NCBI GenBank assembly: GCA_000004985.1
Contig: GG738920.1
Reading direction: 5' to 3' (one strand)
Length of the DNA stretch: 64,000 nt
From: Naegleria gruberi
Taxonomy: Eukaryota
Below the pieces are notes generated by a model, which was not told the DNA's origin, searched no databases, and worked only from the letters and a program-made list of their open reading frames with translations. A program made the position numbers and the translations under genes. Shown here in pieces: positions 578-45,911 of the stretch. Position 1 is the stretch's first letter. The number at the start of each line of letters is the position of its first letter.

Positions 578-2101
578 ATGGAAGTTGCAGTTTCGTATTC
601 TAATCAACAACAACAACATCTTGGAGGTGTTGTTGATGATCTGCAGCAAGTTGTCCTTTTGGAAGATATTTCTATTGGGTTGACTTGTGGAAATTCATAC
701 AATACTTCTTTGGAGAGTATTGTGATGGAAGCATTCCGAGAATTTTCATCAGAAAGTATTGATAATTATTCGAAAGGAGTTACATTGATTCCTTTGGATT
801 TATTGCTTGGTAAAGAAGAGATCAAGCAAGGAATTCCTATTGTAAAGTGTAAAACTATTTGTAAATATGTAGATAATTTGTGCCATTCCCTTTCAACTAA
901 TTCAATGTGGAGATTTGTGGCTCCTCAAGCTTTGATGGACACAGTTTCGAATAAGATTATTTTCAAGTATTTGAATAGACAATTTTCACTGCTGCACTTG
1001 GCATGTATTTTCAATAGATTGGATCTGTTGGAATGGTTAGAAGCTTTATGTTGCGAGTTGAATATTTGTGATGAGATTAATCATTGCCCATCATGTCATC
1101 AGAGAAGAGAAAATTTGTGGTCAACTGTCAAAGATTCGAATGACGTGTTTCCTTTATTTTATTCGATAGAATTCGGCTCATTGGAATGTTGTGCCTTCCT
1201 GTGCTCTCAACCGATTGTGAGAGATAGCCAATTGAACTTGAAGAGGGATCACTTGGGTAATCTTCCAATTGCTTTAGCTTTACAAAAGAAGGATTATGTA
1301 ATGTGTGATACCTTGAGATTATTTGGCGCCTCGTTTGATGTTACGAATGGGTTATCATTTGGCCTGGGACTTGCTGAGAGTTTGATGCATCAAATTATGA
1401 GAAAGCAAGACTATGAAGGTTTCAGATATCTAGCTACTCATTCGCCTAAAGTTATTCTGAAAAAGAATCAGAGAGGTGAGTCTCCTCTCTTCTCTTGTCT
1501 AAAGGATAAGAGAAATAATTACAAAGATGATTTGGTACAAACAACTGCTAGTTTTGGAAGCGTGGACGGCAAACCAATCTATGTTCCTTCGTATATTCTC
1601 TTCTTTTCCAAAATATTGGAAAGCTCTGTATCTCTATTGGGTGAAGAACTCTTACAAAAGGCTCTCCTCTCTAGAAATAACTTTGGAAGAAATGTCTTAA
1701 TGGAAAGTGTAATCATGCACGACTTTGAAAGTTCCAAATTGTTGTGTAAATTCCTGATGAGAAATTACTTGTCTGAGGGTAATGCAAGATTTTCTGCTGG
1801 TGTTTCAATGAACAAGTACAACTTTTTGAAGGAATTAGTCTTTGATAAGGACATTACTGGAATGACAATCTTCTTTTATGCCTTTAGCACCACAGTGAGA
1901 TATATTTCTCTAACGAACGAGAGTGCAAATCAAACTTATCAAATGTTGACCAAACTGTACAAACATACCTCTGCCTCTAATCAGACACTAAAGGCCTATC
2001 TCAAAGAAAAGTACTCTACCAAGAATTTGGATGTCAAGACTCGTAATTTAGTATCTTCTTCATTCAAATACTGGCAGAAATTGGAAGATTCAACTGAATA
2101 A
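578..2101 (+). CDS. ankyrin-repeat-like protein (paralog A of the gene at 54115..55962)
   Basis: Single uninterrupted 507-aa ORF from a real ATG at 578 to TAA. LHLA/GNLPIALAL-type ankyrin-like motifs are present. Long collinear similarity to the 54115 protein, e.g. KNQRGESPLFSCLKDKRNNY vs RNQRDENCLFSCLKDFRSNQ, and LSRNNFGRNVLMESVIMHDFESSKLLCKFL vs LKNSFGRNILLESVALNDHESMKVICQFL. Confidence 0.6.
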   Translation: MEVAVSYSNQQQQHLGGVVDDLQQVVLLEDISIGLTCGNSYNTSLESIVMEAFREFSSESIDNYSKGVTLIPLDLLLGKEEIKQGIPIVKCKTICKYVDNLCHSLSTNSMWRFVAPQALMDTVSNKIIFKYLNRQFSLLHLACIFNRLDLLEWLEALCCELNICDEINHCPSCHQRRENLWSTVKDSNDVFPLFYSIEFGSLECCAFLCSQPIVRDSQLNLKRDHLGNLPIALALQKKDYVMCDTLRLFGASFDVTNGLSFGLGLAESLMHQIMRKQDYEGFRYLATHSPKVILKKNQRGESPLFSCLKDKRNNYKDDLVQTTASFGSVDGKPIYVPSYILFFSKILESSVSLLGEELLQKALLSRNNFGRNVLMESVIMHDFESSKLLCKFLMRNYLSEGNARFSAGVSMNKYNFLKELVFDKDITGMTIFFYAFSTTVRYISLTNESANQTYQMLTKLYKHTSASNQTLKAYLKEKYSTKNLDVKTRNLVSSSFKYWQKLEDSTE

Positions 2102-2245: not shown

Positions 2246-4560
2246 TTATTTGAGAATAACAACTCTAGAATTGGTATAGTCAGCAAGGTACAAGTCACCA
2301 GTCTTTTCATCAAAGAAGGAACCAACAACACGACCGAATTGATCCTTACCCAATGAACCATTGTAACTGGCAGTGAAAACACCAGAATCCAAATTGAAGA
2401 AAGTGATTCTATTGTTACCACCATCACAGACAACAACATTCTTAAGAGTTTCATCAATGGCAATACCACGTGGGTTGATAAATTCCATACTTCCTTGGCC
2501 TTCCTTTCCGTAGACTCTCAAAGATACAAATTCGTGATTATCCTTATCAATACCAATAATGTGCATTCTGTGACTGCCATATTCCGAGACAATGAGATTA
2601 TTATTGATGGACAAGTAGATACCTTCTGGTTGATTGAAGAGAATACCGTCCTTATCATCCTTCTTTGAACCAAAGACCTTGAGTGGTTTACCATCAGAGG
2701 CCTTCAAAACCTTAACACGATGATTTTCACCATCACAAACAAAGACAGTGTTACCACCAGTTTGAGCCAATTCTGGGAACATTTGATTGATCTTTCTAGA
2801 GGTACAAACGATAACACCAGCAGGTTCATTGAACAAGGAAATATCGCTACCCTTCTTCTTACCTGAGGTCCAGATTGGTTCAACCTTTTCCTTTTCGTGA
2901 GCTGTCAACAATTGCTTCAAATTGTACTTGTAGACACAGTGATTGTCACAAGTGTAAATCAAAGCATCATTATTACCTTCAAAGTTTGGTTCAATGGCCA
3001 AATATCTTGGATTCTTTGGTGTCTTGTGAGTAGCCTTGTATTCCTTAGTTTTGAGATCAAAGAATTGAATTCTATTGTTACGACTGTCAGAGACAATGAT
3101 AACTCCACAATTGTGTGAAACTTTAACATCCCATGGACCCTTGAACAAGTCATTATCACTACCTTCCTTACCAGTCTTTCCAATAACACCAGCATGTTCA
3201 AATCTCATAGAATATTGTTTGAATGGAGTTGAAGCTTCGGTGACAGTTGGAGTGCTAGAAGCAGATGTAACAGTGGCAGTTGAAGAGTTGGCAGGTTGTT
3301 CGGAAACTGGAGTAGTGGCAGGTGACTTTGAAACTGGAGTTGGAGCTTTAGTCTTTGGATCAGTTTTGATGATTTCACCCAATTGTGCAATTTCACGTTG
3401 AACATATTTGAGCATGGTTTCAACATTGGTGAGTTGAACATCGTGAACTTCTTCCAAAAGTAAATACTTGAAGAAGGTCTTCAAATCTTCGAAAGATTGA
3501 AGTGTTTGTGGAAGTTTACCTAATTTTCTATCCATCATTTCAAAGCCAGACATTTCAGCCAATTTATCAAATTCAGCAATGTAATCGACGGAAATCTTCT
3601 TTAAATCAATAACTCTATTGGTATAGGTAATTTGTTTTTGACAAATTTCATCAATATCGGCATTCAATTGATCTTGTCTATCTTGTAAAGATTGTCTTAA
3701 ACCATCGAAAATAACTTGAACTTCTTCCTTCAATCTAGTTCTTTCCTTTTCAATCAATGTACTTTCTTCTTCTAATTCATTATCATGGGTTTTATGTGAT
3801 TCTTCCCATTCTTTCAATGAATCTCTCAAATTTTGCAAAACCTTTTCCAAATTGGCACGTTCTTCTGGTTCAATCTTTGAAATCATGTTGACTTCTCCGT
3901 GACCTTCACGATGTTCTTCAATAGCACAAGCAGAACAAACCAATTTCTTACAACTTCCACAGAAAGTGTTGATAGGAATGTGGTGAATTAAACACAATGG
4001 GGCAGGACCTCCAAAAGTACCTGTTGTGTTAATTGTTGAGGCAACCATTGGACTGGCAGTTGTTGATGAGCTGATACTTTGACGTGGAGTTGGTGGCAAA
4101 TGTCCTTCATGATTGTGCAAGTGTTGTCCCAATAGAATACCACTTCCTGAGAGTGATTGTGAGGAGGCTCCAATAAAATCGATCACTTGATGGGAAGGTT
4201 CTTTCTTTCTGTGGATAGCAGCATCACGAGCACACAAGAAAAGATTACAGTCTGTGTGTAAAATAGATGAAATTTTAACACATCACACAATGATTGACAT
4301 TTCGACCCATCATCATTGACGTTCAACAATAGCCATTGAAAATCAGCAAAAAATAGAAAATATCGTTAAAATCTTGTACAAATAAATTACTACGTACCAA
4401 TACATTGACTTTTTGCTTCTTGGAAAACATCAACTTCTTCCTTACAGACAAAGCAACATGGTGGAGCTACTTGTTGAGCAGAAAGTGAAGAAATAGACGA
4501 GCTTGAATCAGAGTGGGAAAGTGTGGAAATAGCAACTGGTGGAATGGTGGTTTCACTCAT
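2246..4560 (-). CDS. RING-less TRIM-like protein: B-box1 + B-box2 + coiled coil + about 6 NHL repeats (Brat/TRIM-NHL-like), 2 exons
   Basis: Exon 1 is about 4398..4560, with ATG (MSETTIPP...) at 4558-4560. It carries CCFVCKEEVDVFQEAKSQCI, then a GTACGT...CACAG intron at about 4252..4397 (146 nt, phase 1). Exon 2 is 2246..4251 and continues DCNLFLCARDAAIHRKKEPSH, which completes a B-box1 CxxC..CxxC..C..H..H pattern. A second B-box (CGSCKKLVCSACAIEEHREGHGEV) follows, then a heptad-rich coiled coil, then NHL blades (GKEGQGSMEFINPRGIAID..., NHRVKVL, NNRIQFFD). No C3HC4 RING is found upstream. Confidence 0.65.
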
Positions 4561-5221
4561 TTTTTTAAAGTGGTTTTTTAACGGTTGATGTGTGGCATGT
4601 GAAGAGACATTAAGTCTGACGGGGTTCAGAGAATCATCTTCCGCAATCAGAGTGAATGGTTCGATGTAGCTGACCTTGTGGGAAGGTGAATCGTACGCTT
4701 GATGACAAGTGTAAATTTTTGGTATGATGTTTGACGCTTTCAAAATGATTAGGTAAGGGGACAGTCCTTAATATTCTTTTGACCGTTTTTTTTCTAACAA
4801 TGCAACTACAGTTACCTCTTTGGAATTGATTCAGCATATTAGCATCGCCCAACAAAAGCAATTAGGACTTCATATAAAGAAATATTTTGGTGGCTACATT
4901 GTTTTGAAAAATTATATCAAGATAACTATCTTTCATGATCTTTCCGAGGTGTTGATTTACATGTACTTTGCTAATATATAATATTTAATTATGAATTTTA
5001 ATGATAAATATTTAAATATTATTAATGGTGAAGCCTTTGTTGCTTTATATTGGCCTTAAAAAAAATTCTCAAAACCCAAGAAGTGATTTCCCGCTATTTT
5101 TTTTTACGAACTGTACATGACTTGAGTTTGATAATGTAACCCAGCATAGATTGTTTATCGATGAATGTTTCATTGTTGAAGCAACTATTACAAACTTTAC
5201 AAAGTGAATGAACACAAAAAA

Positions 5222-6265
5222 ATGCAAACAGCACAGCCTTCATCATATCATCTCGATGGAATTAATAATTGTTCAAACAGCTACCTATTCATTAAAGGCT
5301 GTGAAATGCCCTTTTCCGATGGTTGGATAAATATTGATGTTGGATTATCATCACTCCGATTATTTGAATTCAAATCAGAGGAAATATTTGGAAAAATTAA
5401 AAGAATTGGTATTAAAAAGATTGTATGTGGAGATTATCATGCCATCTTTTTATTAAATGATGGAACTGCTTTTGGGTATGGGCAACGAACAGAGGGACAA
5501 TTGATGGTTGATAGAAATTCGAAACAACATGTTGTTGAAATACCACTTTCCAATATTGAGGATGTTTATTGTGGAAGCAGTTTTACATATTGTTTGATTA
5601 GAAAATCAAAATGTGAGTTCAAAATGGTTTCTTTTGGGCAAAATATAAACGAATGTTGCTCACAAAGAAAGGAGGAGGGAGATAGGGATGTAATTCATTG
5701 TAATCTAGGAGATGTTTATTATTGGAATGATGGATACAGTCAACCAATGGAATTTCCTCCTCCAAATGAAATTGTTCTTGATGTGAAATGTGGAGCCGGG
5801 AAAGTTGCCATTCTCACAAAACACTACAAGGATAATCAGAGATTTCTATATTCGATTGGGATTTATGAAAAGAATTTTGGAATTCTACGAAACAAGTATC
5901 TCAGTAGAAGAATACTCTGGAGAACCTACGACAATACGGAATATTTAACGTTGTTCCAGAATTACATAGTATTCCACATGAAGGAGGGACTAAACTATAG
6001 TGATGAAGATATTGAAGAGTATTCCAATAGAATGTTTTCGGAAAGATTCCAGTTGGATTATTTTGGGAAATTATTTGAACTCCCGATATATTCATCTCCA
6101 CCAAGATACCAAATATTGCCAAACGTGAAAATAGAAAAGATTGTAAGTGATTTGGCAGCTTTATCCGCAGAAGGTGATGTTTATGATTTAATGAGCAAGA
6201 GAAAGATTGAGTTTCATGAATTACTTACTGATTTAGATCAGAAAACATTTAAAATGGATAAGTAA
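5222..6265 (+). CDS. RCC1-like repeat protein (hypothetical)
   Basis: The tool ORF starts on GTG at 5204; the first in-frame ATG is 5222 (MQTAQPSS). KKIVCGDYHAIFLLNDGTAFGYGQRTEGQL resembles an RCC1 blade (G.H...L...G.V...G.N..GQLG). It ends in TAA. Family assignment is tentative. Confidence 0.45.
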   Translation: MQTAQPSSYHLDGINNCSNSYLFIKGCEMPFSDGWINIDVGLSSLRLFEFKSEEIFGKIKRIGIKKIVCGDYHAIFLLNDGTAFGYGQRTEGQLMVDRNSKQHVVEIPLSNIEDVYCGSSFTYCLIRKSKCEFKMVSFGQNINECCSQRKEEGDRDVIHCNLGDVYYWNDGYSQPMEFPPPNEIVLDVKCGAGKVAILTKHYKDNQRFLYSIGIYEKNFGILRNKYLSRRILWRTYDNTEYLTLFQNYIVFHMKEGLNYSDEDIEEYSNRMFSERFQLDYFGKLFELPIYSSPPRYQILPNVKIEKIVSDLAALSAEGDVYDLMSKRKIEFHELLTDLDQKTFKMDK

Positions 6266-6966
6266 AGTTTCAATGTAGATATTTCAAGCAATGGAAAGGT
6301 ATTATTTATTCTCGTGAAGAGAGGGTTGTACAGAACAAAAGAGGTTATCAGATTTTGGGAATTAATTAGAAAGGAATCATTTCATGATATATTGTTCAAA
6401 CATAATGATGAAATATCTCAAACTGAATATCCTAAACCTTCAGTTGAAAAAGCACTCCAAAACGAATAGTTCTCAATCGAGTGTAGGATCTATTGGAAAT
6501 TTCTTTTCGAATTCCAAACAAAAAGATTTAGGATATCAGTAAGGTGTGGAGATAACTCAACAACTGCTTAGGTCTTATTTTGATGTGGCCTCAAATAAGC
6601 TTTGTTACATAGCAGGTCAATGCCGAATATGCAGATATTATCAAAAAGGAAGTAGGATGCATTGTTTGATTTGATATTCAATCACTATACATCAATTATT
6701 GAGCTGTATTTTACAATTGCTTATCTCTTCATATTTGTATTGTGCCAGGCAAACTTACAACAAGTTGATGCCGGTTGACTTGCTAACATTTTGTTATCAA
6801 ACCCCATCACATAGTCTCGTTATATACAATCAAAGATTGACGAGAATTATACAAAGAAAGTGATTTCCCGTATGAACTTTTCAATGGCAGATGACATTAT
6901 TGTTAGATAATTACAGTTTCATCTCCAAGGAGGATATCAAAAACTAAAAAACAAACTAAAGATACC

Positions 6967-9393
6967 ATGAAGATAGTACCAGAAGAAAGTATCAACGAGA
7001 ATGAAGAAGAAGTTGAATTGCTTCTTCCTTCTCAAAAGAAAGGCATTTTGAAAGGAATTATGCCACTCAACCTGTTCATTGTCTTTACAATATCCATTTT
7101 AATTTTGAGTGGCAGTTTATTGTTGTGGGGAGCTTCCTATGCATTAACCAAACAAGCAATTACAGAACTTTCCAATAGTTTAATCAGAGTTTCAGGTGAG
7201 AAAATTGTTGGTTTTTTGGATGGAATGCTAAAACCCGTGTCTATGGAAACTAGATCAATGGCCAGAGAATACATGCTCTCTACTCTAGATTTTAATATTA
7301 ATCAGCAACGTGGCTATCTGTATCCAAAGGTTTTGGACTTTGGCAACAATGGAGTTGGTTACTTTTTTGAAAAACCTTACAATGCCAGATATACCTATAC
7401 TTATCCAGTTGGGTCTGCATTCATGAATTATGTCTATCAAGCATTTGGAAGTCCACTGTCAATCACTGACAGAATTAATATCACAACAGCATATCCTGTC
7501 AAGTTGAATTATACAGTCAGCTCAACTCCTTATATTAACAATATTCAACCTTTTTATAACTATACAGTTGAGAGGACTAAAACTTTGGGAGTTGATGGAG
7601 TTTTTGGTGATCCATATGTTACAGGAGGTAAGTATCAACACAATTGATGAAATCAAACTCAATTGTTGACAGGTGTCATGACAATTTATTATTCTCATTT
7701 ACTCTTTAACCCAACACTTTATCAAAAGAATAGAACGAGAGACATGGTGGGTGTTGCAAAAATCAATCTTTCCCTCAAAGCTGTTGCTAATTACCTTTCC
7801 ACAATTAGACTTTTAGGAAGTGGCTATGTTGTGTTGGGAGACAACTCTGGAACCTATCTAGGAGCAAGTTTATTTGTCAATTCTACTACCAATACCATCT
7901 TTGATTTGACAGATCGAAATGCTGGTTTATTACTGAGACAATTCTTTAATATGAATGGAAATTCAACTAATTTTGATAATTCCACTTCCTTCATAATGGT
8001 TGGAGAGCTTGATGAAATTTCTTACATTATTACACCACTCAAGTATAGATTAGAGAATGTGGATTGGAATATTTTCTTTATATTGTACGAACAGGAAGTG
8101 ACAGCTACTTTAATGTTGACAACTTATATTTCGATTGGTGTGACAGCTGGTGTTGTGATTATTGGTTTATTGTCAAGTTTGTTTATAGGGTTGGTTGTTT
8201 CTAGACCTATGAAATTCTTGGAGAAGCAATTCAAGCTTATTAAGGTCTTTGATTTGGATAATGTTGTTTCGAATAAGTCAGTTTTCAGAGAAGTCAACTC
8301 AATTTTCAATAATCTGGACGAAACCATTGATTGGTTGAAGGAAATCAAATCGTTCGTTCCTCCATATATCCTTGAACAAATCCAAAACAGTGAACAAGTT
8401 CAAAAATCAAATACCCAGGAAACAGTTGGAGAAACCAACCGAAAGTCAGTCACTTCATTCCATTCCCAACCTCATTCCAAAGGTGAATCTGGAGCTAGTT
8501 TCCACACAGTTGCTCAATCTTCTTACAAGAATTCAAAGTCACTTTTCAAAATGGGATTAATTGAAAATCCTTCAGCTATCATTACTATTAGAACTGAAGC
8601 TGACAGTCCACATATTTTGGAAGAAGCTTTCAAAGAATTGGTGGTTGCTTTGGGACCTGTCGTGAAGGTTTCTCAAGGAAATTTGCAAATTATTTCATAT
8701 AATCATTTCCAATTGTCATTCACTGCCAATCAACTAGATTCTAAATTGGCTGAAAAAGCTTTTGAAACAGCACTCAAAATTTTCAAAGCTTCTCGATCCA
8801 TTAAGAATCCGATTGATGTAAGAATGGGTGTCTGTGTCAACAAGAGCCACTCTGGAAATTTAGGAACAAATACTTCAAGACATTACATGGTGGTGGGTAA
8901 AGCAGTTGAGCTCTCGGACAAATACTGTGAGTTAGCTTCATTGATGAAGGTGAACATAATTTCAGATTTAGCATCCTTCCAAAAATCAGAGAAATTCATT
9001 GCTAGACCTTTGGACAGGATTGGTTTTGATATGGAAAAAGTTATTGTCTGGGAAGTAATTGATAAGAAAAATGAAGAGAATGATGAATGGTTGTATGAAT
9101 TGGAACGCTCAAAGGAGAATAACAAGTTTAAGGAATACTCCAAAGTATTCGAAATGTTGGAAGAAAAGTTCTGGGAGGTAAATAGAGAAACTGATGATGT
9201 AATTGGAGAATTAGGTAAATCCATTTCAGTTCTGGAAAATTGGTTGAATTCTAATAACAAGGATTCAGGCACAGTTGAGAAATTGTTAAACCATCTCAGA
9301 AAAGTCATGAACAATTCATATGATAATATTTCTCAATTGAAAGATTTTGTTATGAGCTATTCGACAGCTTTTGTCTCTAAGAAATTAATGTAA
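6967..9393 (+). CDS. single-pass receptor-like membrane protein: glycosylated ectodomain + HAMP-like linker + degenerate class III nucleotidyl-cyclase homology domain (2 exons, about 800 aa)
   Basis: ORFs 6967..7647 and 7663..9393 are in the same frame and are joined by a 45-nt GTAAGT...GACAG intron at about 7628..7672. That intron contains an in-frame TGA, so it must be spliced out. The N-terminal signal anchor is LNLFIVFTISILILSGSLLLW. The ectodomain of about 330 aa has many NxS/T sites. A second TM follows (LMLTTYISIGVTAGVVIIGLLSSLFIGLVV), then RPMKFLEKQFKLIKVFDLD, which is HAMP-like. The C-terminal domain carries cyclase-fold hallmarks (RMGVCVNKSHSGNLG...RHYMVVGKAVELSDKY...KVNIIS) but lacks the Asn/Arg catalytic pair and a clear metal-binding Asp. 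Confidence 0.55.
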
Positions 9394-9601: not shown

Positions 9602-10339
9602 TTAGTGAACTCCAAAAATTCCTCTGACAAACATTCTGTTAATAACCATTGGTTCATTCTCCTCTTCATTCTCTTCAACCTCAACTGGAGGAGTTGGTTT
9701 CAACAGCTTTTTCTTTTCTAGTTTTCGTTCCTTTCTTTGTGCGTGATAGAGATGTTTGTGAATGGCATCAGAATTGTTAACAACCAACGGAACACTCTCC
9801 ATCATGAATTCTTCGTGAACTGGTGGATCACTCCTTATTGAAGGAGCTTCCATTGAGGCATAATGTTTCCTCAGAGAAGTATAATCCACACTCTGAGCAA
9901 CCATTCGCTTCTTCTTTTTAAGCTTTTCTTCCATTCTTTCATAGATTGCTCTGTCAGTGAGTGGAGGTTGAACATTTGGTGGAAGAACTTGCTGCTGTTG
10001 CTGTACTATATCTTCTTCTTCCTTAATGTTATAGATATTTAAATAGGGCACTATTCTTCTTCGATGATGAATATCGGGTAAGACCATTCTCGATTCTTGT
10101 TGATTGTCTAAGATTGAAGGTGCTTTGGTTGCCTCATTATTATTACGATGATGGCGATGATGATGCTTTCTATGATGCTTCTTATGATTTGTTAAGGCCT
10201 TTTGCTGAGGATGATTCCCAGTAGGAGTAGGAACAATATATCTTCTTATTCCTTGATGACATGTTGTTGAGGGAGTACTAGAGTGAAGTTGTTGTTCTTG
10301 TTTGTTAGTAACACTACTCGAAACGGCCATGTCTTTCAT
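9602..10339 (-). CDS. hypothetical low-complexity protein (poly-His/Arg and poly-Gln tracts, Lys/Glu-rich C-terminus)
   Basis: 245-aa ORF with a real ATG at 10337-10339 and a TAA stop. It contains HHRKHHHRHHRNNNE and QQQQQ runs. I recognise no domain. Confidence 0.4.
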   Translation of the reverse strand: MKDMAVSSSVTNKQEQQLHSSTPSTTCHQGIRRYIVPTPTGNHPQQKALTNHKKHHRKHHHRHHRNNNEATKAPSILDNQQESRMVLPDIHHRRRIVPYLNIYNIKEEEDIVQQQQQVLPPNVQPPLTDRAIYERMEEKLKKKKRMVAQSVDYTSLRKHYASMEAPSIRSDPPVHEEFMMESVPLVVNNSDAIHKHLYHAQRKERKLEKKKLLKPTPPVEVEENEEENEPMVINRMFVRGIFGVH

Positions 10340-40733: not shown

Positions 40734-43127
40734 ATGAATGAGACACTTGATAGTAGCAGCAACAATCTCCTCTTTAATCGTGAATATACTTCGAGGTCAA
40801 ATGTTGGGAGGCCAACATTTAGTTTAAGGGACTCTATGAATAGGGAATGTCTAGGATCATCCAATGTTGTGCCAACAACTCAAAAACAAACATCTTCTTC
40901 CGAGAGAGTTTATGGAGCAACATTTACTCCCTTCCCAACAAGAGAAAATATTCCTCCACGTTCCGATGATGCTGTCCTTAGAAAGAGTTATACATTTGAT
41001 GACAAGATGAGTGGCTTCCGAGAAAAAATCGACAATAGTCACTATAGCACATCTTTGGGGTGGAAGAGAAGAGCCGAGAAGGATGCAGAATGTTGCAAGA
41101 ACTGTCATTTATGTACTCAAACTCTTACAACAGATAAATGGGCCTTAACCAAACAAGAACGACAACTAAGGCCAGACTCATCAACAAGAGAACCAATGGA
41201 AGGTTATTATCCAAGTAATGATGGAAAGCAATATAGACCATATTCTCCAGACACAAAGTCAATGATGCAGAAATTAGTTGGCTACAAGGAGAATCCACAA
41301 GATCCTTCATTACCAATGTATAAATCAGCTCATTCACATCAAACTCCATCTGTGGATTATTATATGAATCAACCAAAGATTGAAACAAACTCTAGGCAAT
41401 CACAACCTAACACATACCCTAAGAATCCAAGTAAGATGCAGCCTTATAATACAAATACGATCTATCTAAGTAACAACCCCATCTCAGTCAAAAGTGTGAC
41501 ACTAAATACCAGATACGATCCAGCCTCAAGGTATAATCAAAATCCAGATGAGCCAAATAATTTCTTTCAAAGAGTTAGAATGGGTAGAATGTATTCTGAT
41601 TCTACTCCTTGGGAATACTATTTACATTATAATGAAGACGATGATGAAAAGAAGGACATGTATGATATGATTAGACAAAGATGTGCAGAATATGCCAAAA
41701 ATCAAACCAAAAAGGAAGATAGAAAAAGTAGAATATGTATGGAAACTTCAGAATTTAAAAATATTGTGGAAAAGCTCACAAGAAAGGAAACTAGCTCAGT
41801 GGAGACACAGACAGCAATCGATGAAAATAATAAGGAAAATGAAAACGATTATTCTAGAAATGCAATACAATCGAATAATACATCTGATTCTACAAGAACT
41901 AAAAAGTCAGACAAACAATCAGTCAATCAACAATCAAACAATCAATCAAATGGTAATGAAGAAGCAAATATTTATCTTCAAAATTCATCTGAGCAAAAGA
42001 AAACAAAATCTAAGCCAACTAAAAAGAAAGTATCCAATAATTCTACGACTCTCTCAACAACCTCAACAACTTCATCCAAATCCTCTAATAGTAGTGGCAG
42101 TTCAACATCCAATAGAGTACTCTCCATAACAAATGGTCCTCCTAGCACCAACAATAGAGTTATTGACGGTCTACCTGTTAACAGTCCTGCCAAAAAGCAA
42201 GATACACCAAAAGGTGTACCTGGTTTTACGCCACCTAAAAAGTCAGAAGTTTTTAATAAGATTGTCACAAATATGACCTCCAATAATAAGAAAAAGGTGA
42301 ACTCAAAGAAGAAAAAGAAGTCTCTAAATATTGAACCAAGGAAGAGTGTCTCTCAAAATACTACCTCAACTTCATCCTTCATAATATCAGACAAGACCAA
42401 ATCAACAACAACCTCTCCCTCCATAATCAACAAACCTGACAAGAAATTTAAAAAGACAATGAAAAGAATGGAAGATACAAAGAAAAAGGCAGAGTGGCTG
42501 GATAAGTACATTGCCCTGCTTTCTAGTCCAGAAAAATCAAGTGTTAAGAAGCGATTGGAAAGCTCCAGCAGACACACCTCTCCAAAGAAATCTGAAAGCT
42601 CACAAATCACCTTGCAAACCTCTTCTGATTGTGAAGATAATTCTACTCCATACTCCATTGACTTTGATGATGTTTACACTGGGTTGCCATCAACAGTGTC
42701 AACAGCGATAGCAACCTCAAAGTCTGTGCAAAAATGCTTTGATTCTGTTCTGAATTACTTTGAAAAGTCTAAATACAAATCAGACTCGTCCACGGAAGAG
42801 GACAATTTGGATGAAGAATTGGATGATAATGTAAGCCTTTCATCAATGACATCTGAATTGGAAATATCTGTAAAATATAACATTGGCAGCTACTCGAGTG
42901 ATGAAGAGGATGAAGAACAACTTTCAAGTGACGATGAGGAATGTAGTTTATTGAATGAGTTTACTCCAAATACTTCTTACCTTGTTGATAATATGAACGA
43001 AACTTCAGCAAGCATTTCAATGGATACCTCGCTGAACACTGTTTCGATCGGTTCAGAACAAGAGTTTGAGTGTAGCTCTTTGGATGATATTTCACGAGAT
43101 TTTAACATTTCAAATATGTCAATATAA
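40734..43127 (+). CDS. hypothetical 797-aa Ser/Thr/Asn/Lys-rich low-complexity protein with an acidic C-terminus
   Basis: Real ATG at 40734 and a TAA stop. Long S/T/N tracts, K-rich blocks and an acidic DEE-rich C-terminus are present. No domain is recognised. Confidence 0.45.
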   Translation: MNETLDSSSNNLLFNREYTSRSNVGRPTFSLRDSMNRECLGSSNVVPTTQKQTSSSERVYGATFTPFPTRENIPPRSDDAVLRKSYTFDDKMSGFREKIDNSHYSTSLGWKRRAEKDAECCKNCHLCTQTLTTDKWALTKQERQLRPDSSTREPMEGYYPSNDGKQYRPYSPDTKSMMQKLVGYKENPQDPSLPMYKSAHSHQTPSVDYYMNQPKIETNSRQSQPNTYPKNPSKMQPYNTNTIYLSNNPISVKSVTLNTRYDPASRYNQNPDEPNNFFQRVRMGRMYSDSTPWEYYLHYNEDDDEKKDMYDMIRQRCAEYAKNQTKKEDRKSRICMETSEFKNIVEKLTRKETSSVETQTAIDENNKENENDYSRNAIQSNNTSDSTRTKKSDKQSVNQQSNNQSNGNEEANIYLQNSSEQKKTKSKPTKKKVSNNSTTLSTTSTTSSKSSNSSGSSTSNRVLSITNGPPSTNNRVIDGLPVNSPAKKQDTPKGVPGFTPPKKSEVFNKIVTNMTSNNKKKVNSKKKKKSLNIEPRKSVSQNTTSTSSFIISDKTKSTTTSPSIINKPDKKFKKTMKRMEDTKKKAEWLDKYIALLSSPEKSSVKKRLESSSRHTSPKKSESSQITLQTSSDCEDNSTPYSIDFDDVYTGLPSTVSTAIATSKSVQKCFDSVLNYFEKSKYKSDSSTEEDNLDEELDDNVSLSSMTSELEISVKYNIGSYSSDEEDEEQLSSDDEECSLLNEFTPNTSYLVDNMNETSASISMDTSLNTVSIGSEQEFECSSLDDISRDFNISNMSI

Positions 43128-43139
43128 ACATGATTATTT

Positions 43140-45911
43140 TTATTCTAAAATTTCAGAAGGAAGATTGTCTCCAACTCTAATTGAGAAGTTTTCAGAGCCA
43201 TGTTTAACACGATTTTCTTTTGCGCCATAGCTACTATCAGTTGCACTAAAGCTTGATGAAGCTGGTTGTTTGAATTCTACAATGAAATGGAAATCTCTTA
43301 CTTGGATATGGACATACTCAATAACATTTTGGTGAATATATTCTCGCATTGATATCTTAGTTTCATCACTCTTATTATTAATGTAGAGATAAACTTTTGG
43401 TGGAGTTCCTGCACTAAAAGCAAGATAAATGAGTATCTTGGTGAAAATCTTAAAATTGATATCACTAGAAAGTAAAGTACCAAAATCAGGCTTTGACAAC
43501 AGATACTTGAAGGTAGTGAAAATAATAAACTTGTAAAGTTCTTGTGATGACATTTGCTTTCCATGAATATTTTCATTATTATCATAGAATGGTTTCCACA
43601 ATTTTACACTAAATAACTCTTCATATCTGGCCATTTCTGAATCATACCATTCACGTGAGCAGAAAGGCATAGGTGTATGAATTAAAGATGAATCCTTATT
43701 TTCTGGGCTATAGATAGATGATGGGAAGACTGTTGTTTGCTTGAGATCTGTCAACTCACGCTTTGTTATAAGACAGTAATTAAGCACTTTAGGAGCATTA
43801 TGTAACAAGTAGTGGAATGACCTGATTAATTTCACATCATTCAATTCGACCTCCTTCTTTCTGATGACTGTTGCGTAATCACCAAGAATACCAACCTTTT
43901 GGAAATAGCTTTGCATATCCTTCAAACAGAGGTAATGTAATTTGACTTCCAATGATTCATCCTTAACAATGGTATTTGCAACAAGAGAGTTGATAAAGTT
44001 GGTCATTTCGTCATTAGGTGTCAAATTCTTTACAAGCTCAGAGGCAGCATGAGCTCTTCTATGTAATACCTTATCGAGTAATGTTGATTCGTTCTTGTCT
44101 GCAATGACAGTTGACAAATCATTAAAAGCTTGATAAAAATTACCAAGTTTGATTAAACAAAGAGCTCTATTTGATAACACTCTTGAATCATTTGGATAAC
44201 GTTTGGTTGCAGTATTGTAGCATTCGCGAGCTTCCTCGAATTTCTTTTCTCTGAAAAGGTCATTACCAGCTTCTGTGTACATATGGCCATAGTCCAATTC
44301 AACAAATTCATTACCATTAATGAAGAGGGTTACTGGTTTTTGGAGAGTAATTTTTTCAAAGATTGAAAGTTTTGTTGAAAGTGGAATAATTTTTTGTCTT
44401 TCTCCGAGTGTCTTTTTGAAACAGACTGTTGTGATAGGCATGGTGGAATGATCGGAAATTAATTCAATCAATCTCTTGAGGTCATATTTGGCTCCAACCT
44501 TGAATAGGCATTGCTTTGATGGTGGTTCTGTCTTACTTGTGTAGGAACTATTTTCATCGAAAGTCAGTGCTATTTGATAACTAGATACCTCACCAACATT
44601 CTTTGGGTTGATGCAAATCAAGTGTCTAAAGGCAATCTCTTCAGAAAAGAGTCTTGTTGTTTTGGTATTTACATGAGAGGAAGTGTTTTGTTCTGCTACT
44701 GATGCAACAGAATTACCAGTGTTGGTAGGGGAGGTTGGTTCACTAGTTGTTGTTGGTGCAGAATTTACACCTGGAACTTGTTGGAGTCTTTTGGAATTTT
44801 GGGAAGTAAGTGTTGGATGATCGGATGATTCACTTCCTTCAGTTGCACTTTGGATTGGCATTGTGTTCAATAAATTATTTTCTGATGATGTTTTTTGTTG
44901 TACTTGTTGCTGATCAAAAGCAGTAATATTATTATTATTAGATGATTGATCTGATAAATCAACAATGTCTTCTTCTTCGATAGAGATGGATCTCTTTTGT
45001 TTCCTTGAATCGTTAACAATTGGTGTCGAATTGCTTCTATCAAGCCAGTCAGTACTATTCGAGTCGCGACTATTTGTTATATCTTGCTGCTGCTCTGTTA
45101 GTGGTCGTTGTTCTTCTTCTCTACGAGTCTCTTTAGCTGCGTGGAGGTTATTCTTTTTGTTGGAATTATTTTTAAAATTATTTTTCTTCTTCTCATGTTC
45201 TTCATCACCAAAACAACTTGATGAATAATCATTCGAGTTCTTGGTTTCACTTTTGGGATAGAGAAGGGTCGAGTAACCTTCGGGATAGAGTTTGGTCGAT
45301 AAACCAGTTGGATAGTCATCGCGCATGGTGTGGGATGAAGAAGGTGTAATTTGAGAAGCAAGCTGGGCTGAAAATTCTTCCAAAGTGATTGTTGGTTGAT
45401 GAACTTCAGCTTGGAAGGCTCGTGGTACATCAGAGTTTAAATCATAATTTGTGCACATAACACTATCACCATCATTGAGAGAGTTTTGAAGGGCTCTTGC
45501 GTATTGTTCATCGAAATCATCCTGATTATTATATGCAAAAGTATGTTCTACTGAGACGAAAGGAGTATGCCAATCATGATCACGATCTTCTGGGCCAAAT
45601 ATGCTTGGAGAGAGAGGTCGCTTGTAGCGATTATTACCATTAATCCTGTCAGTATTATTGCTTGATGATGTTGATCCGTTATTATTGTGATGTTGATCAT
45701 CATTTGCATTGGTAAACTTTAACATTTCGGATGTGTAATTGATGTTCTGCTGTGATGATTCTGTTGTTGATAACAATTCATTGGATGTTTTAGCCTTTTT
45801 ACTAGCAGTACTATTATCATGATCCTCTTCGCAATCACTAATTCGTTCAGCGAGTTCACCTTCACAATAATCATATTTGCTTATGAAATCATATAGACTT
45901 CTCTTTGACAT
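43140..45911 (-). CDS. TPR-repeat-containing protein (923 aa)
   Basis: Real ATG at 45909-45911 (MSKRSLYDF). TPR-like repeats lie in the C-terminal third (AGNDLFREKKFEEARECYNTATKRYPNDSRVLSNRALCLIKLGNFYQAFNDL). The N-terminal half is low-complexity Ser/Asn/Gln-rich. The stop lies 12 nt from the stop of the convergent gene at 40734..43127. Confidence 0.55.
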   Translation of the reverse strand: MSKRSLYDFISKYDYCEGELAERISDCEEDHDNSTASKKAKTSNELLSTTESSQQNINYTSEMLKFTNANDDQHHNNNGSTSSSNNTDRINGNNRYKRPLSPSIFGPEDRDHDWHTPFVSVEHTFAYNNQDDFDEQYARALQNSLNDGDSVMCTNYDLNSDVPRAFQAEVHQPTITLEEFSAQLASQITPSSSHTMRDDYPTGLSTKLYPEGYSTLLYPKSETKNSNDYSSSCFGDEEHEKKKNNFKNNSNKKNNLHAAKETRREEEQRPLTEQQQDITNSRDSNSTDWLDRSNSTPIVNDSRKQKRSISIEEEDIVDLSDQSSNNNNITAFDQQQVQQKTSSENNLLNTMPIQSATEGSESSDHPTLTSQNSKRLQQVPGVNSAPTTTSEPTSPTNTGNSVASVAEQNTSSHVNTKTTRLFSEEIAFRHLICINPKNVGEVSSYQIALTFDENSSYTSKTEPPSKQCLFKVGAKYDLKRLIELISDHSTMPITTVCFKKTLGERQKIIPLSTKLSIFEKITLQKPVTLFINGNEFVELDYGHMYTEAGNDLFREKKFEEARECYNTATKRYPNDSRVLSNRALCLIKLGNFYQAFNDLSTVIADKNESTLLDKVLHRRAHAASELVKNLTPNDEMTNFINSLVANTIVKDESLEVKLHYLCLKDMQSYFQKVGILGDYATVIRKKEVELNDVKLIRSFHYLLHNAPKVLNYCLITKRELTDLKQTTVFPSSIYSPENKDSSLIHTPMPFCSREWYDSEMARYEELFSVKLWKPFYDNNENIHGKQMSSQELYKFIIFTTFKYLLSKPDFGTLLSSDINFKIFTKILIYLAFSAGTPPKVYLYINNKSDETKISMREYIHQNVIEYVHIQVRDFHFIVEFKQPASSSFSATDSSYGAKENRVKHGSENFSIRVGDNLPSEILE

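What the first reader, a model, noticed from the sequence alone, without database searches (positions are those of the whole stretch)
6967..9393. Receptor-type protein with a nucleotidyl-cyclase-like but probably inactive catalytic domain (pseudo-cyclase receptor)
The architecture is a signal anchor, then a heavily N-glycosylated ectodomain of about 330 aa (possibly Cache/CHASE-like), then a TM, then a HAMP-like helix, then a Ser-rich linker, then a class III cyclase-homology domain at about 8575..8960. This is the layout of receptor adenylyl/guanylyl cyclases. However, the positions that normally carry the transition-state Asn and Arg (N...R in ..GDTVNxASRMES) read ELSDKYCE, and the first metal-binding Asp motif is not recognisable (AIITIRTEADSPH). 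Either this is a regulatory pseudo-enzyme or receptor decoy, or it needs a partner subunit to form an active site, as heterodimeric cyclases do.
Basis: partly seen in the sequence, partly recalled or inferred. Interest (0 to 1): 0.6.

Follow-up and report, generated by a model that had tools for sequence, protein, structure and literature searches.

The report
Naegleria dCache receptor with dead cyclase domain
This Naegleria gruberi gene encodes a membrane receptor with a bacterial-type extracellular sensor whose intracellular cyclase domain keeps the enzyme's fold but has lost every residue needed to make cAMP or cGMP. It belongs to a large, unannotated family of such "dead-enzyme" receptors in Naegleria and its relatives.

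Summary
Window 6967-9393 (+) is a two-exon gene of Naegleria gruberi (45-nt GT-AG intron at 7628-7672) that encodes 793 aa.

The layout is TM1, extracellular dCache, TM2, a conserved two-helix module, a disordered Ser-rich linker, a class III cyclase-homology domain (CHD) and a family-specific helical tail starting with DEWLYEL.

- **Ectodomain:** the AF2 model has pLDDT 92 and matches bacterial dCache sensors.
- **HAMP:** the two-helix module is HAMP-like in position only. Sequence searches do not support it.

All six canonical catalytic positions are substituted: metal Asp to R527 and N564, substrate Lys to I560, Thr/Asp to M626, Asn to E633, Arg to K637. The phosphate-binding KGK loop is missing. 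Because both half-sites are dead, a heterodimeric partner cannot rescue activity in the canonical way.

The gene is not an oddity. About 135 of the 150 best cluster representatives carry similarly degenerate CHDs. They come from Naegleria, Willaertia, Percolomonas, Pharyngomonas, Entosiphon and metagenomes. The CHD is as conserved as the rest of the protein.

The public gene model NAEGRDRAFT_59796 is a chimera with the upstream RCC1-like gene.

Best reading: a ligand-sensing receptor pseudo-cyclase with a non-catalytic output. What that output is remains unknown.

The parts
6967..7627 (+). Exon 1 (aa 1-220 plus the first base of codon 221). It encodes the short cytoplasmic N-terminus, TM1 and the first half of the dCache ectodomain.
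   Evidence: ATG at 6967. BLASTP to the N-terminus of paralogue P0003 gives 39% identity, E=6e-45, collinear from Met1. Relatives share the MK(V/I)xP start and TM1.
7628..7672 (+). Intron, 45 nt, GTAAGT...ACAG, phase 1. It contains an in-frame stop, so a retained intron would truncate the protein.
   Evidence: Sequence read. Splicing restores one frame of 2382 nt. The junction ...PYVTGG|VMTIYY matches the paralogues' continuous sequence.
7673..9393 (+). Exon 2 (aa 221-793 plus the stop codon).
   Evidence: It is 100% identical to the C-terminal 72% of public protein P0001, NAEGRDRAFT_59796.
7063..7134 (+). TM1 / signal anchor (aa 33-56).
   Evidence: Kyte-Doolittle 19-residue windows score above 1.6. 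The segment is conserved in relatives.
7135..8127 (+). Extracellular double-Cache (dCache) sensor domain, aa 57-372. The intron lies inside it. It carries 8 N-x-S/T sequons.
8128..8205 (+). TM2 (aa 373-398).
   Evidence: Hydropathy analysis.
8206..8397 (+). Juxtamembrane two-helix module plus the 'EIKSFVPxxxxxQ' helix (aa 399-462). It is HAMP-like in position and is the most conserved part of the family.
   Evidence: AF2 predicts helices at model residues 3-17, 32-52 and 57-76 with pLDDT 84-96. Mean pairwise identity is 41%. P399 and E427 are invariant. There is no sequence match to HAMP.
8398..8541 (+). Low-complexity Ser/Thr/His-rich linker (aa 463-510), predicted disordered. It is inserted where canonical relatives go directly from the 'YVP' helix to strand beta1.
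   Evidence: pLDDT is 42-44. Mean pairwise identity is 13%. The alignment to canonical relatives shows the insertion.
8542..9081 (+). Degenerate class III cyclase-homology domain (aa 511-690). Substituted catalytic positions are R527 (8590-8592, metal Asp 1), I560 (8689-8691, substrate Lys), N564 (8701-8703, metal Asp 2), M626 (8887-8889, substrate Thr/Asp), E633 (8908-8910, Asn) and K637 (8920-8922, Arg). The KGK loop is absent and the beta1-alpha1 loop is shortened.
9082..9390 (+). Family-specific C-terminal helical bundle that starts with the near-invariant motif DEW(L/M)YEL (aa 691-793).
   Evidence: AF2 predicts helices at model residues 299-387 with pLDDT above 90. W693 is invariant, and D, E, Y, E, L are at least 90% conserved. 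The motif is absent from canonical relatives. There is no meaningful PDB sequence homologue.

Best explanation
The gene encodes a 793-aa, two-pass membrane receptor of Naegleria gruberi. It descends from bacterial-type dCache-linker-class IIIb adenylyl cyclases, but its cyclase-homology domain is now a pseudo-enzyme.

**Shown**
- The ectodomain has a double-Cache small-molecule sensor fold.
- The cytoplasmic domain has the class III cyclase fold.
- All six canonical catalytic positions and the KGK phosphate loop are substituted or deleted.
- The same degeneration runs through a large family in Heterolobosea and other Discoba.
- The dead domain is as conserved as the sensor domain.

**Inferred**
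- The protein cannot make cAMP or cGMP by the two-metal mechanism, either as a homodimer or by contributing a half-site to a heterodimer.
- It still works as a receptor. Ligand binding to the dCache domain is passed through TM2 and the highly conserved juxtamembrane helices.
- The dead CHD, together with the family-specific DEWLYEL helical bundle, acts as a non-catalytic output module. It could be a dimerisation or partner-binding platform, or a subunit that pairs with and silences active cyclase paralogues.
- The exact output is not established.
For: - **Organism and gene model:**
- **dCache fold:**
- **Catalytic positions:** three independent alignments agree on R527, I560, N564, M626, E633 and K637 and on loss of KGK.
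- **Family-wide degeneration:** of 121 scoreable non-canonical representatives, 112 lack both Asp-Asp and Asn..Arg, 3 keep Asp-Asp and none keeps Asn+Arg. The Asp-1 position is Lys or Arg in 52 of 127.
- **Constraint on the dead domain:** mean pairwise identity is 30% for the CHD, 29% for the tail and 26% for the ectodomain, against 13% for the linker. GNxG, R/K, RP and DEWxYEL are near-invariant.
- **Ancestry:** canonical relatives with the same TM-dCache-TM-linker-CHD layout exist (P0068, P0151, P0140).
- **Established knowledge:** the two Asp residues coordinate the two catalytic metal ions in class III cyclases, and Asn/Arg stabilise the transition state. This is the standard mechanism from the mammalian AC C1-C2 structures and mycobacterial Rv1625c mutagenesis, and rests on my own knowledge.
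Against: - There are no biochemical data.
- Residue equivalence rests on sequence alignments, because model coordinates could not be inspected. E529 and D531 lie just after R527 and could in principle sit near the metal site.
- N to E and R to K are chemically conservative changes.
- A family this large and this conserved could hide a non-canonical chemistry.
- The disordered linker between the juxtamembrane helices and the CHD argues against rigid helical signal transmission, so how the sensor couples to the output is unclear.
- Nothing here identifies a downstream partner.
Confidence: 0.7

Rival explanations
1. Half-site donor. The protein is inactive alone but forms a heterodimer with a paralogue that supplies the complementary catalytic residues, as in mammalian AC C1/C2, soluble guanylyl cyclase alpha/beta or chytrid NeoR/RGC pairs. 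The heterodimer would have one working active site.
For: Class III cyclases are obligate dimers with active sites at the interface (established knowledge). Relatives in Percolomonas, Pharyngomonas and Entosiphon keep the Asp-Asp pair but not Asn/Arg, so they look C1-like (P0149, P0145, P0138). N. gruberi has at least 12 paralogues.
Against: A half-site donor must keep either Asp-Asp or Lys/Thr(Asp)/Asn/Arg. The query keeps neither: it has R527 and N564, and I560, M626, E633 and K637, with no KGK loop. None of 121 representatives keeps the canonical Asn+Arg set, so no complementary C2-like partner was seen inside the family. No paralogue lies in the 64-kb window.
Confidence: 0.07
2. Dominant-negative or regulatory subunit. 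The dead CHD pairs with catalytically competent cyclase paralogues and lowers or gates their cAMP/cGMP output in response to its own extracellular ligand.
For: The CHD fold is intact and conserved, which implies the dimerisation scaffold may be too. A heterodimer of a fully dead subunit with an active subunit has no complete active site (inference from the mechanism). The literature reports 81 or more cyclases in Naegleria (PMC9928731), so partners are plentiful.
Against: No evidence of heterodimerisation exists. The family-specific DEWLYEL bundle, which canonical relatives lack, and the sheer size of the dead family suggest an output of their own rather than pure interference. Interface residues were not analysed.
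Confidence: 0.2
3. Non-canonical enzyme. The domain still catalyses a nucleotide reaction, either cyclisation with a remodelled site or another nucleotidyl transfer, using residues other than the canonical six.
For: The CHD shows strong purifying conservation, including GNxG, R/K623 and G at the start of helix alpha4. About half of the family keeps an acidic residue at the Asp-2 position, often followed by Glu. Close paralogues have K/R-x-D/E at the end of beta1.
Against: The query itself has N564-H565 at the Asp-2 site, a shortened beta1-alpha1 phosphate loop and no KGK loop. The Asp-1 position is a cation (K/R) in 41% of members, which is incompatible with metal binding. No position offers a conserved replacement acidic pair across the family.
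Confidence: 0.08
4. Decaying gene. A recent duplicate of a cyclase receptor is drifting toward a pseudogene, and the substitutions are neutral wear.
For: The query is more degenerate than its nearest paralogues. It has N564-H565 where they have D/E-E, and it has a shortened beta1-alpha1 loop. No close orthologue was found outside N. gruberi; the best non-gruberi hit is 29% identical.
Against: The 2382-nt reading frame is intact and has a canonical intron. All family-invariant residues are retained: F512, K513, G515, GNLG, R623, RP, DEWLYEL. The query's identity to relatives is typical for the family in every domain. AF2 models are confident.
Confidence: 0.04

Closest known systems
Bacterial-type dCache-(HAMP)-class IIIb adenylyl cyclases. 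Examples here are metagenomic P0140 and the protist-like P0068 and P0151. Solved class IIIb catalytic domains include P. aeruginosa CyaB (3r5g) and human soluble AC (4clf).
   Same: They share the order of parts: TM1, dCache, TM2, juxtamembrane helices with the 'YVP/FVP' motif, then the CHD. They share the CHD fold. The GNxG hairpin is typical of CyaB-like enzymes. The best sequence and fold matches are to this group.
   Different: Canonical members carry FTDI...KYIGDA...YTALGDxVNxxSRxE...KGK. The query has none of these residues. It has a 40-50 aa disordered insertion before beta1 and a DEWLYEL helical bundle that the canonical proteins lack.
Pseudo-symmetric or heterodimeric cyclases with one degenerate site: mammalian membrane AC C1/C2, soluble AC C1/C2, soluble guanylyl cyclase alpha/beta, and chytrid NeoR/RGC heterodimers (PMC12264004).
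   Same: A CHD that has lost catalytic residues is kept because it is needed as a dimer partner. The best PDB sequence hit is the C2 half of soluble AC.
   Different: In those systems each half keeps a complementary subset, so one site works. Here both subsets are lost in the same polypeptide.
Trypanosomatid receptor-type adenylate cyclases (ESAG4/GRESAG4; structure 1fx4).
   Different: As far as I know, those are catalytically active homodimers with canonical residues, a single TM and a periplasmic-binding-protein-like ectodomain rather than dCache.
Non-catalytic relatives of the same fold that are used as signalling modules: the P. aeruginosa 'class III adenylyl cyclase-like ATP-binding protein' (6yii), and degenerate GGDEF/EAL receptors such as LapD (3pjx, 6pwj) and FimX (3hva).
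   Different: There is no detectable specific sequence relationship. Those proteins are bacterial. LapD senses c-di-GMP through its EAL domain and signals inside-out. Whether the Naegleria domain binds any nucleotide is untested.

Membership tests
Class III nucleotidyl cyclase catalytic domain (CHD, Pfam PF00211) | Significant sequence homology to the family | tested here: met
   Pfam HMM on the query alone finds no hit at E<=10. The family profile hits solved cyclases at E=2.3e-10. hhalign to canonical relatives gives Prob 99.8%, E=1e-29. 11 of 50 scanned relatives hit PF00211.
Class III nucleotidyl cyclase catalytic domain (CHD, Pfam PF00211) | [quoted passage not shown] | tested here: met
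Class III nucleotidyl cyclase catalytic domain (CHD, Pfam PF00211) | Two metal-binding aspartates (FxD on beta1, GD on the beta2-beta3 turn) | tested here: not met
   R527 and N564 occupy these positions in hmmalign, MAFFT and hhalign alignments.
Class III nucleotidyl cyclase catalytic domain (CHD, Pfam PF00211) | Substrate-specifying Lys and Asp/Thr (AC), or Glu/Cys (GC) | tested here: not met
   I560 and M626 occupy these positions.
Class III nucleotidyl cyclase catalytic domain (CHD, Pfam PF00211) | Transition-state Asn and Arg on helix alpha4, and the KGK phosphate loop | tested here: not met
   E633 and K637 occupy the Asn and Arg positions, and the KGK loop is deleted. In most relatives the Lys sits one residue earlier.
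Class III nucleotidyl cyclase catalytic domain (CHD, Pfam PF00211) | Dimerisation and cyclase activity | not testable with these tools
   This needs a multimer prediction or biochemistry.
dCache_1 extracellular sensor (Pfam PF02743) | Two tandem PAS-like modules on a long N-terminal helix, located between two TM helices | tested here: met
   AF2 pLDDT is 92. The top 50 Foldseek hits are all dCache sensors, at prob 1.00 and target-normalised TM-score up to 0.74. The domain is flanked by TM1 and TM2.
dCache_1 extracellular sensor (Pfam PF02743) | Match to the Pfam model | tested here: not met
   The query does not hit the model. 11 of 50 scanned relatives do. phmmer gives only weak hits to 6d8v and 3li8.
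dCache_1 amino-acid-sensing subclass (R-x-W-Y ... D motif, recalled from the literature on PctA-type sensors) | Conserved Arg/Trp/Tyr and Asp that hold the ligand's carboxyl and amino groups | tested here: inconclusive
   In a MAFFT alignment with canonical relatives, 'TRPWY' aligns to query 'IQPFY' and 'GLDI' aligns to 'KINL'. The motif appears lost, but its definition is from memory and no reference sensor sequence was in the alignment.
HAMP domain (Pfam PF00672) | Sequence match to HAMP | tested here: not met
   A profile of 30 family segments against the PDB gives nothing below E=0.45 and no HAMP protein. Pfam HAMP matches 1 of 30 segments at E=0.14. Canonical relatives do not hit HAMP either.
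HAMP domain (Pfam PF00672) | About 50-aa helix-connector-helix directly after TM2, with a conserved Pro in helix 1 and Glu at the start of helix 2 | tested here: inconclusive
   AF2 predicts helices at model residues 3-17 and 32-52. P399 and E427 are invariant. This is compatible with HAMP, but the four-helix dimer cannot be tested on a monomer model.

The most novel reading that the evidence does not exclude
Heterolobosea and some other Discoba carry a radiation of well over a hundred receptor pseudo-cyclases. In these proteins a dead class III cyclase domain fused to a new DEWLYEL helical bundle has become a signalling output in its own right, independent of cAMP/cGMP synthesis. It might act as a cytosolic nucleotide sensor or a partner-recruiting platform, possibly with LapD-like inside-out control of the dCache ectodomain. 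That would be a eukaryotic receptor class with a new transduction logic, and it is present in the pathogen N. fowleri.
Probability: 0.3. Interest if true: 0.75.

Novelty: new variant of a known kind. Interest (0 to 1): 0.55.

Why it matters
- **Cyclase counts may be inflated.** Naegleria is cited for an unusually large cyclase repertoire, 81 to more than 100 (PMC9928731). If a large share of those CHD proteins cannot make cyclic nucleotides, the picture of cAMP/cGMP signalling in these amoebae changes.
- **Cache receptors have been undercounted.** The Cache survey of 2016 found a Cache domain in only one Naegleria protein (PMC4822843). This family shows dozens of divergent dCache receptors that Pfam models miss.
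- **A rare kind of pseudoenzyme.** Receptor pseudoenzymes built on the cyclase fold with both half-sites dead are, as far as my literature searches show, not described. They offer a natural experiment on how a dimeric enzyme domain is repurposed.
- **Possible markers or targets.** Members occur in N. fowleri, so as lineage-specific surface receptors they could serve as markers or drug targets.
- **Annotation error.** The public gene model for this locus is wrong.

Tried and rejected
- **Pfam on the query.** It returned no cyclase, Cache or HAMP hit. This was a sensitivity problem, not evidence of absence.
- **Partner in the window.** An HMM scan of all six-frame ORFs found no paralogue.
- **HAMP.** A profile against the PDB and Pfam scans of 30 family segments gave nothing. 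Canonical relatives also lack a Pfam HAMP hit. I therefore describe the module only as HAMP-like in position.
- **C-terminal tail.** A profile against the PDB gave only designed helical repeats and calmodulin-type low-complexity helices. I treat this as no homologue.
- **Two profile searches of the 5.8-billion-protein index**. They returned almost nothing, apparently because of the word-index limit, so no full named census of the family was possible. Taxonomy rests on 30 cluster look-ups.
- **Genomic loci of paralogues P0002 and P0003.** They are not on record, so intron conservation and tandem arrangement could not be checked.
- **AFDB fold library.** It was unavailable.
- **Literature searches.** Searches for pseudo-cyclase or degenerate cyclase receptors and for Naegleria cyclase catalytic residues found nothing relevant.
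- **Heavy N-glycosylation as a strong signal.** Rejected: 8 sequons against 4.4 expected (P about 0.05).
- **Alternative register placing E529 at the metal-Asp position.** Considered and rejected as the primary alignment, because MAFFT, hmmalign and hhalign all place R527 there. Without coordinates it cannot be excluded.
Full report
**1. What is at the locus**

The window is AT-rich (about 35% G+C). The translated finding is 100% identical to part of Naegleria gruberi protein NAEGRDRAFT_59796 (P0001), so this is nuclear DNA of N. gruberi.

The stated interval holds two ORFs in different frames, 6967-7647 and 7663-9393. Between them lies a 45-nt GTAAGT...ACAG element at 7628-7672. Removing it yields one continuous 2382-nt frame of 793 codons.

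Exon 1 is genuine. Its product aligns collinearly from Met1 to the exon boundary with the N-terminus of N. gruberi paralogue P0003 (39% identity, E=6e-45). Relatives from N. lovaniensis and Willaertia share the same start, TM1 and ectodomain N-terminal half.

The public model is 890 aa. It joins the upstream RCC1-like ORF (5204-6265; Pfam RCC1) to exon 2 and skips exon 1. That would remove TM1 and half of the sensor domain, so I regard it as a chimera of two genes.

**2. Anatomy**

- **Transmembrane segments.** Hydropathy gives two TM segments, aa 33-56 and aa 373-398.
- **Sequons.** The ectodomain has 8 N-x-S/T sequons against 4.4 +/- 1.8 expected from its composition (P about 0.05). Only N171 and N252 recur in about half of the relatives. 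Glycosylation is plausible but is not a strong signal.
- **Ligand motif.** In an alignment with canonical relatives, the 'TRPWY' and 'GxD' elements that I recall as the amino-acid-binding signature of PctA-type dCache sensors read 'IQPFY' and 'KIN'. The ligand is probably not an amino acid. That is a lead, not a test.
- **Cytoplasmic region.** Residues 395-793 were modelled with a 100-sequence alignment (pLDDT 88). The model shows two helices directly after TM2 (model residues 3-17 and 32-52), a third helix (57-76), a disordered stretch (79-113, pLDDT 42-44), a compact alpha/beta domain (120-291) and a five-helix C-terminal bundle (299-387).
- **Juxtamembrane helices.** These are the most conserved part of the family (41% mean pairwise identity), and P399 and E427 are invariant. 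HAMP could not be confirmed by sequence: there is no HAMP protein in a profile search of the PDB, and Pfam HAMP matches only 1 of 30 segments at E=0.14.

**3. The cyclase-homology domain**

The query alone does not hit Pfam PF00211 and gives only E=0.016 to CyaB by phmmer. Profile and fold methods are decisive.

- A six-member family profile hits human soluble AC (C2 half) at E=2.3e-10, OaPAC at 6e-6, CyaB at 2.6e-5, and also RhGC, Cya2 and sGC alpha.
- Foldseek on the model gives prob 1.00 and target-normalised TM-scores of 0.7-0.79 to CyaB, Cya2, RhGC, Rv1625c and CyaC.
- hhalign of a 101-sequence family profile against three canonical relatives gives Prob 99.8%, E=1e-29 over 183 columns.

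The domain is therefore a true class III CHD. It is most like the class IIIb branch: the substrate position is Thr in the canonical relatives, there is a GNxG hairpin as in CyaB, and the best hits are sAC, PAC and CyaB.

**4. Catalytic residues**

Three relatives found by the exhaustive profile search have the same TM-dCache-TM-linker-CHD layout and canonical motifs, MFTDIxxFT...DKYIGDA...YTALGDxVNxxSRxE...VKGKSK. They are P0068 and P0151 (metagenomic, with eukaryote-like low-complexity sequence) and P0140 (bacteria-like). All three hit PF00211 at 1e-20 to 4e-27.

hmmalign, MAFFT L-INS-i and hhalign agree on the mapping below.

| Canonical role | Query residue |
|---|---|
| Metal Asp 1 | R527 |
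| Substrate Lys | I560 |
| Metal Asp 2 | N564 |
| Substrate Thr/Asp | M626 |
| Transition-state Asn | E633 |
| Transition-state Arg | K637 |

In addition, the beta1-alpha1 loop that cradles the phosphates is shortened by about six residues, and the KGK loop is deleted.

One caveat applies. E529 and D531 follow R527, and I could not inspect coordinates. Even so, the second Asp, the Lys, the Thr, the Asn and the KGK loop are lost regardless of how that strand is aligned.

Class III active sites are built from Asp-Asp of one subunit and Lys/Thr/Asn/Arg of the other (established mechanism). A subunit lacking both sets cannot complete a site in a homodimer or in any heterodimer.

**5. It is one member of a large family**

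An exhaustive HMMER search of 1.84 billion cluster representatives with the full-length profile gave 144 proteins at E<=1e-30 and 1339 at E<=1e-10.

- **Degeneration is general.** Of the best 150, 142 contain the CHD-like domain, and only three of those (P0068, P0151, P0140) are canonical. Among 121 scoreable others, 112 lack both Asp-Asp and Asn..Arg, 3 keep Asp-Asp only and none keeps Asn+Arg. The Asp-1 position is Lys or Arg in 52 of 127.
- **Conserved positions.** GNxG (G 132/133, N 116/133), R/K at the next basic position (131/133), the Gly that starts alpha4, 'RP', and the motif DEW(L/M)YEL that opens the C-terminal bundle. That motif is absent from canonical relatives.
- **Constraint by region.** Mean pairwise identity among 27 full-length members is 30% for the CHD, 29% for the tail, 26% for the ectodomain and 13% for the linker. 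The dead domain is under constraint.
- **Taxonomy.** Cluster look-ups assign members to N. gruberi (at least 12 paralogues, all labelled 'predicted protein'), N. lovaniensis, N. fowleri and Willaertia magna. The three Asp-Asp-retaining forms belong to Percolomonas, Pharyngomonas and the euglenid Entosiphon. Unnamed metagenome contigs make up the rest.
- **Variant architectures.** Some relatives swap the ectodomain or add modules, such as a solute-binding protein domain plus SAM in Pharyngomonas and ankyrin repeats in metagenomic members.
- **Pfam coverage.** Pfam recognises the cyclase or dCache domain in only 11 of 50 scanned relatives, 3 of which are the canonical cyclases.

**6. Mechanism**

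- **Shown:** sensor fold, topology, dead CHD, constraint on the dead CHD, and family-specific additions (linker insertion, DEWLYEL bundle).
- **Inferred:** the protein is a ligand-binding receptor whose output is not cyclic-nucleotide synthesis.

The most economical model is that the CHD plus tail is a dimeric, non-catalytic platform. Its conformation or accessibility changes with ligand occupancy, and it binds a downstream partner.

A variant I consider less likely (0.2) is that it pairs with active cyclase paralogues and silences or gates them.

The disordered Ser-rich insertion sits between the conserved 'FVPxxxxxQ' helix and beta1. It breaks the rigid helical connection used by canonical HAMP/S-helix cyclases. 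That fits a changed coupling mode, but the mode is unexplained.

Non-canonical catalysis (0.08), half-site donation (0.07) and gene decay (0.04) are the remaining rivals. Evidence for and against each is listed in the report sections.

**7. Comparison with known systems and novelty**

It passes the fold and homology tests for the CHD family but fails every catalytic-residue test. I therefore file it as a CHD-fold pseudo-enzyme, not as a cyclase.

Literature searches found no description of such a receptor family. The 2016 Cache survey reports a Cache domain in a single Naegleria protein (PMC4822843). The Naegleria pangenome paper simply counts at least 81 cyclases (PMC9928731).

I rate it a new variant of a known kind, with interest 0.55. 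The individual gene is a solid but unsurprising pseudo-enzyme call. The size, conservation and lineage restriction of the family, and the unknown output, are what make it worth following.

Noticed in passing
window 5204-9393 (+): The public gene model NAEGRDRAFT_59796 (P0001, 890 aa) fuses the upstream RCC1-like ORF (5204-6265, which has its own stop codon) to exon 2 of the receptor and skips the real exon 1 (6967-7627). It looks like a chimera of two genes.
   Followed up: yes
P0003 (N. gruberi paralogue, 755 aa), CHD region: Its public model lacks about 65 residues of the CHD core, from after 'ALKI' to before 'ASKYDVKI', which includes the GNxG hairpin and alpha4. This is either a mis-called intron or a real internal deletion. 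The genomic locus was not retrievable.
   Followed up: partly
family-wide, CHD position equivalent to query R527: The first metal-binding Asp is replaced by Lys or Arg in 52 of 127 representatives. In the query's closest paralogues an acidic residue follows two positions later (K/R-x-D/E). It is unexplained and might be a salt bridge filling the former metal site.
   Followed up: partly
P0149 (Percolomonas), P0145 (Pharyngomonas), P0138 (Entosiphon): These relatives from other Discoba genera (two heteroloboseans and one euglenid) keep both metal Asp residues (D...GD) but not Asn/Arg. P0149 and P0138 already carry the EWMY motif; it was not seen in P0145. This suggests stepwise loss of catalysis within the family.
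   Followed up: partly
P0145; P0049 and P0098: The same dead-CHD module is combined with other parts. P0145 has a bacterial solute-binding-protein ectodomain and a C-terminal SAM domain. P0049 and P0098 are metagenomic proteins of 1150-1175 aa on 29-45 kb contigs; P0049 has ankyrin repeats by its source label and a single Pfam ankyrin match in the alignment that contains it, P0098 by its source label only.
   Followed up: no
P0059 (ENA contig of 2042 nt): An independent public assembly carries a 226-aa gene call identical to the unspliced exon-1 ORF (6967-7647). The locus therefore exists in a second data set, but it was called without splicing.
   Followed up: no
window 9602-10339 (-): The 245-aa ORF immediately downstream on the opposite strand has a His/Arg/Lys-rich run (HKKHHRKHHHRHHRNNN), Glu/Lys-rich stretches and no Pfam match.
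   Followed up: no
window 578-2101 (+), 2246-4237 (-), 43140-45911 (-), 40734-43127 (+), 46156-48693 (-): Neighbouring long ORFs are unrelated eukaryotic genes: ankyrin repeats, a B-box plus NHL-repeat (TRIM-like) protein, a TPR protein, and two ORFs of about 800 aa with no Pfam hit. No second cyclase-like gene lies in the 64 kb.
   Followed up: partly
window 8206-8397 (aa 399-462): The juxtamembrane two-helix module with 'WLKEIKSFVP' is the most conserved segment of the family (41% identity), yet it matches no Pfam or PDB family, including HAMP. It may be a very divergent HAMP or a distinct transducer element.
   Followed up: partly
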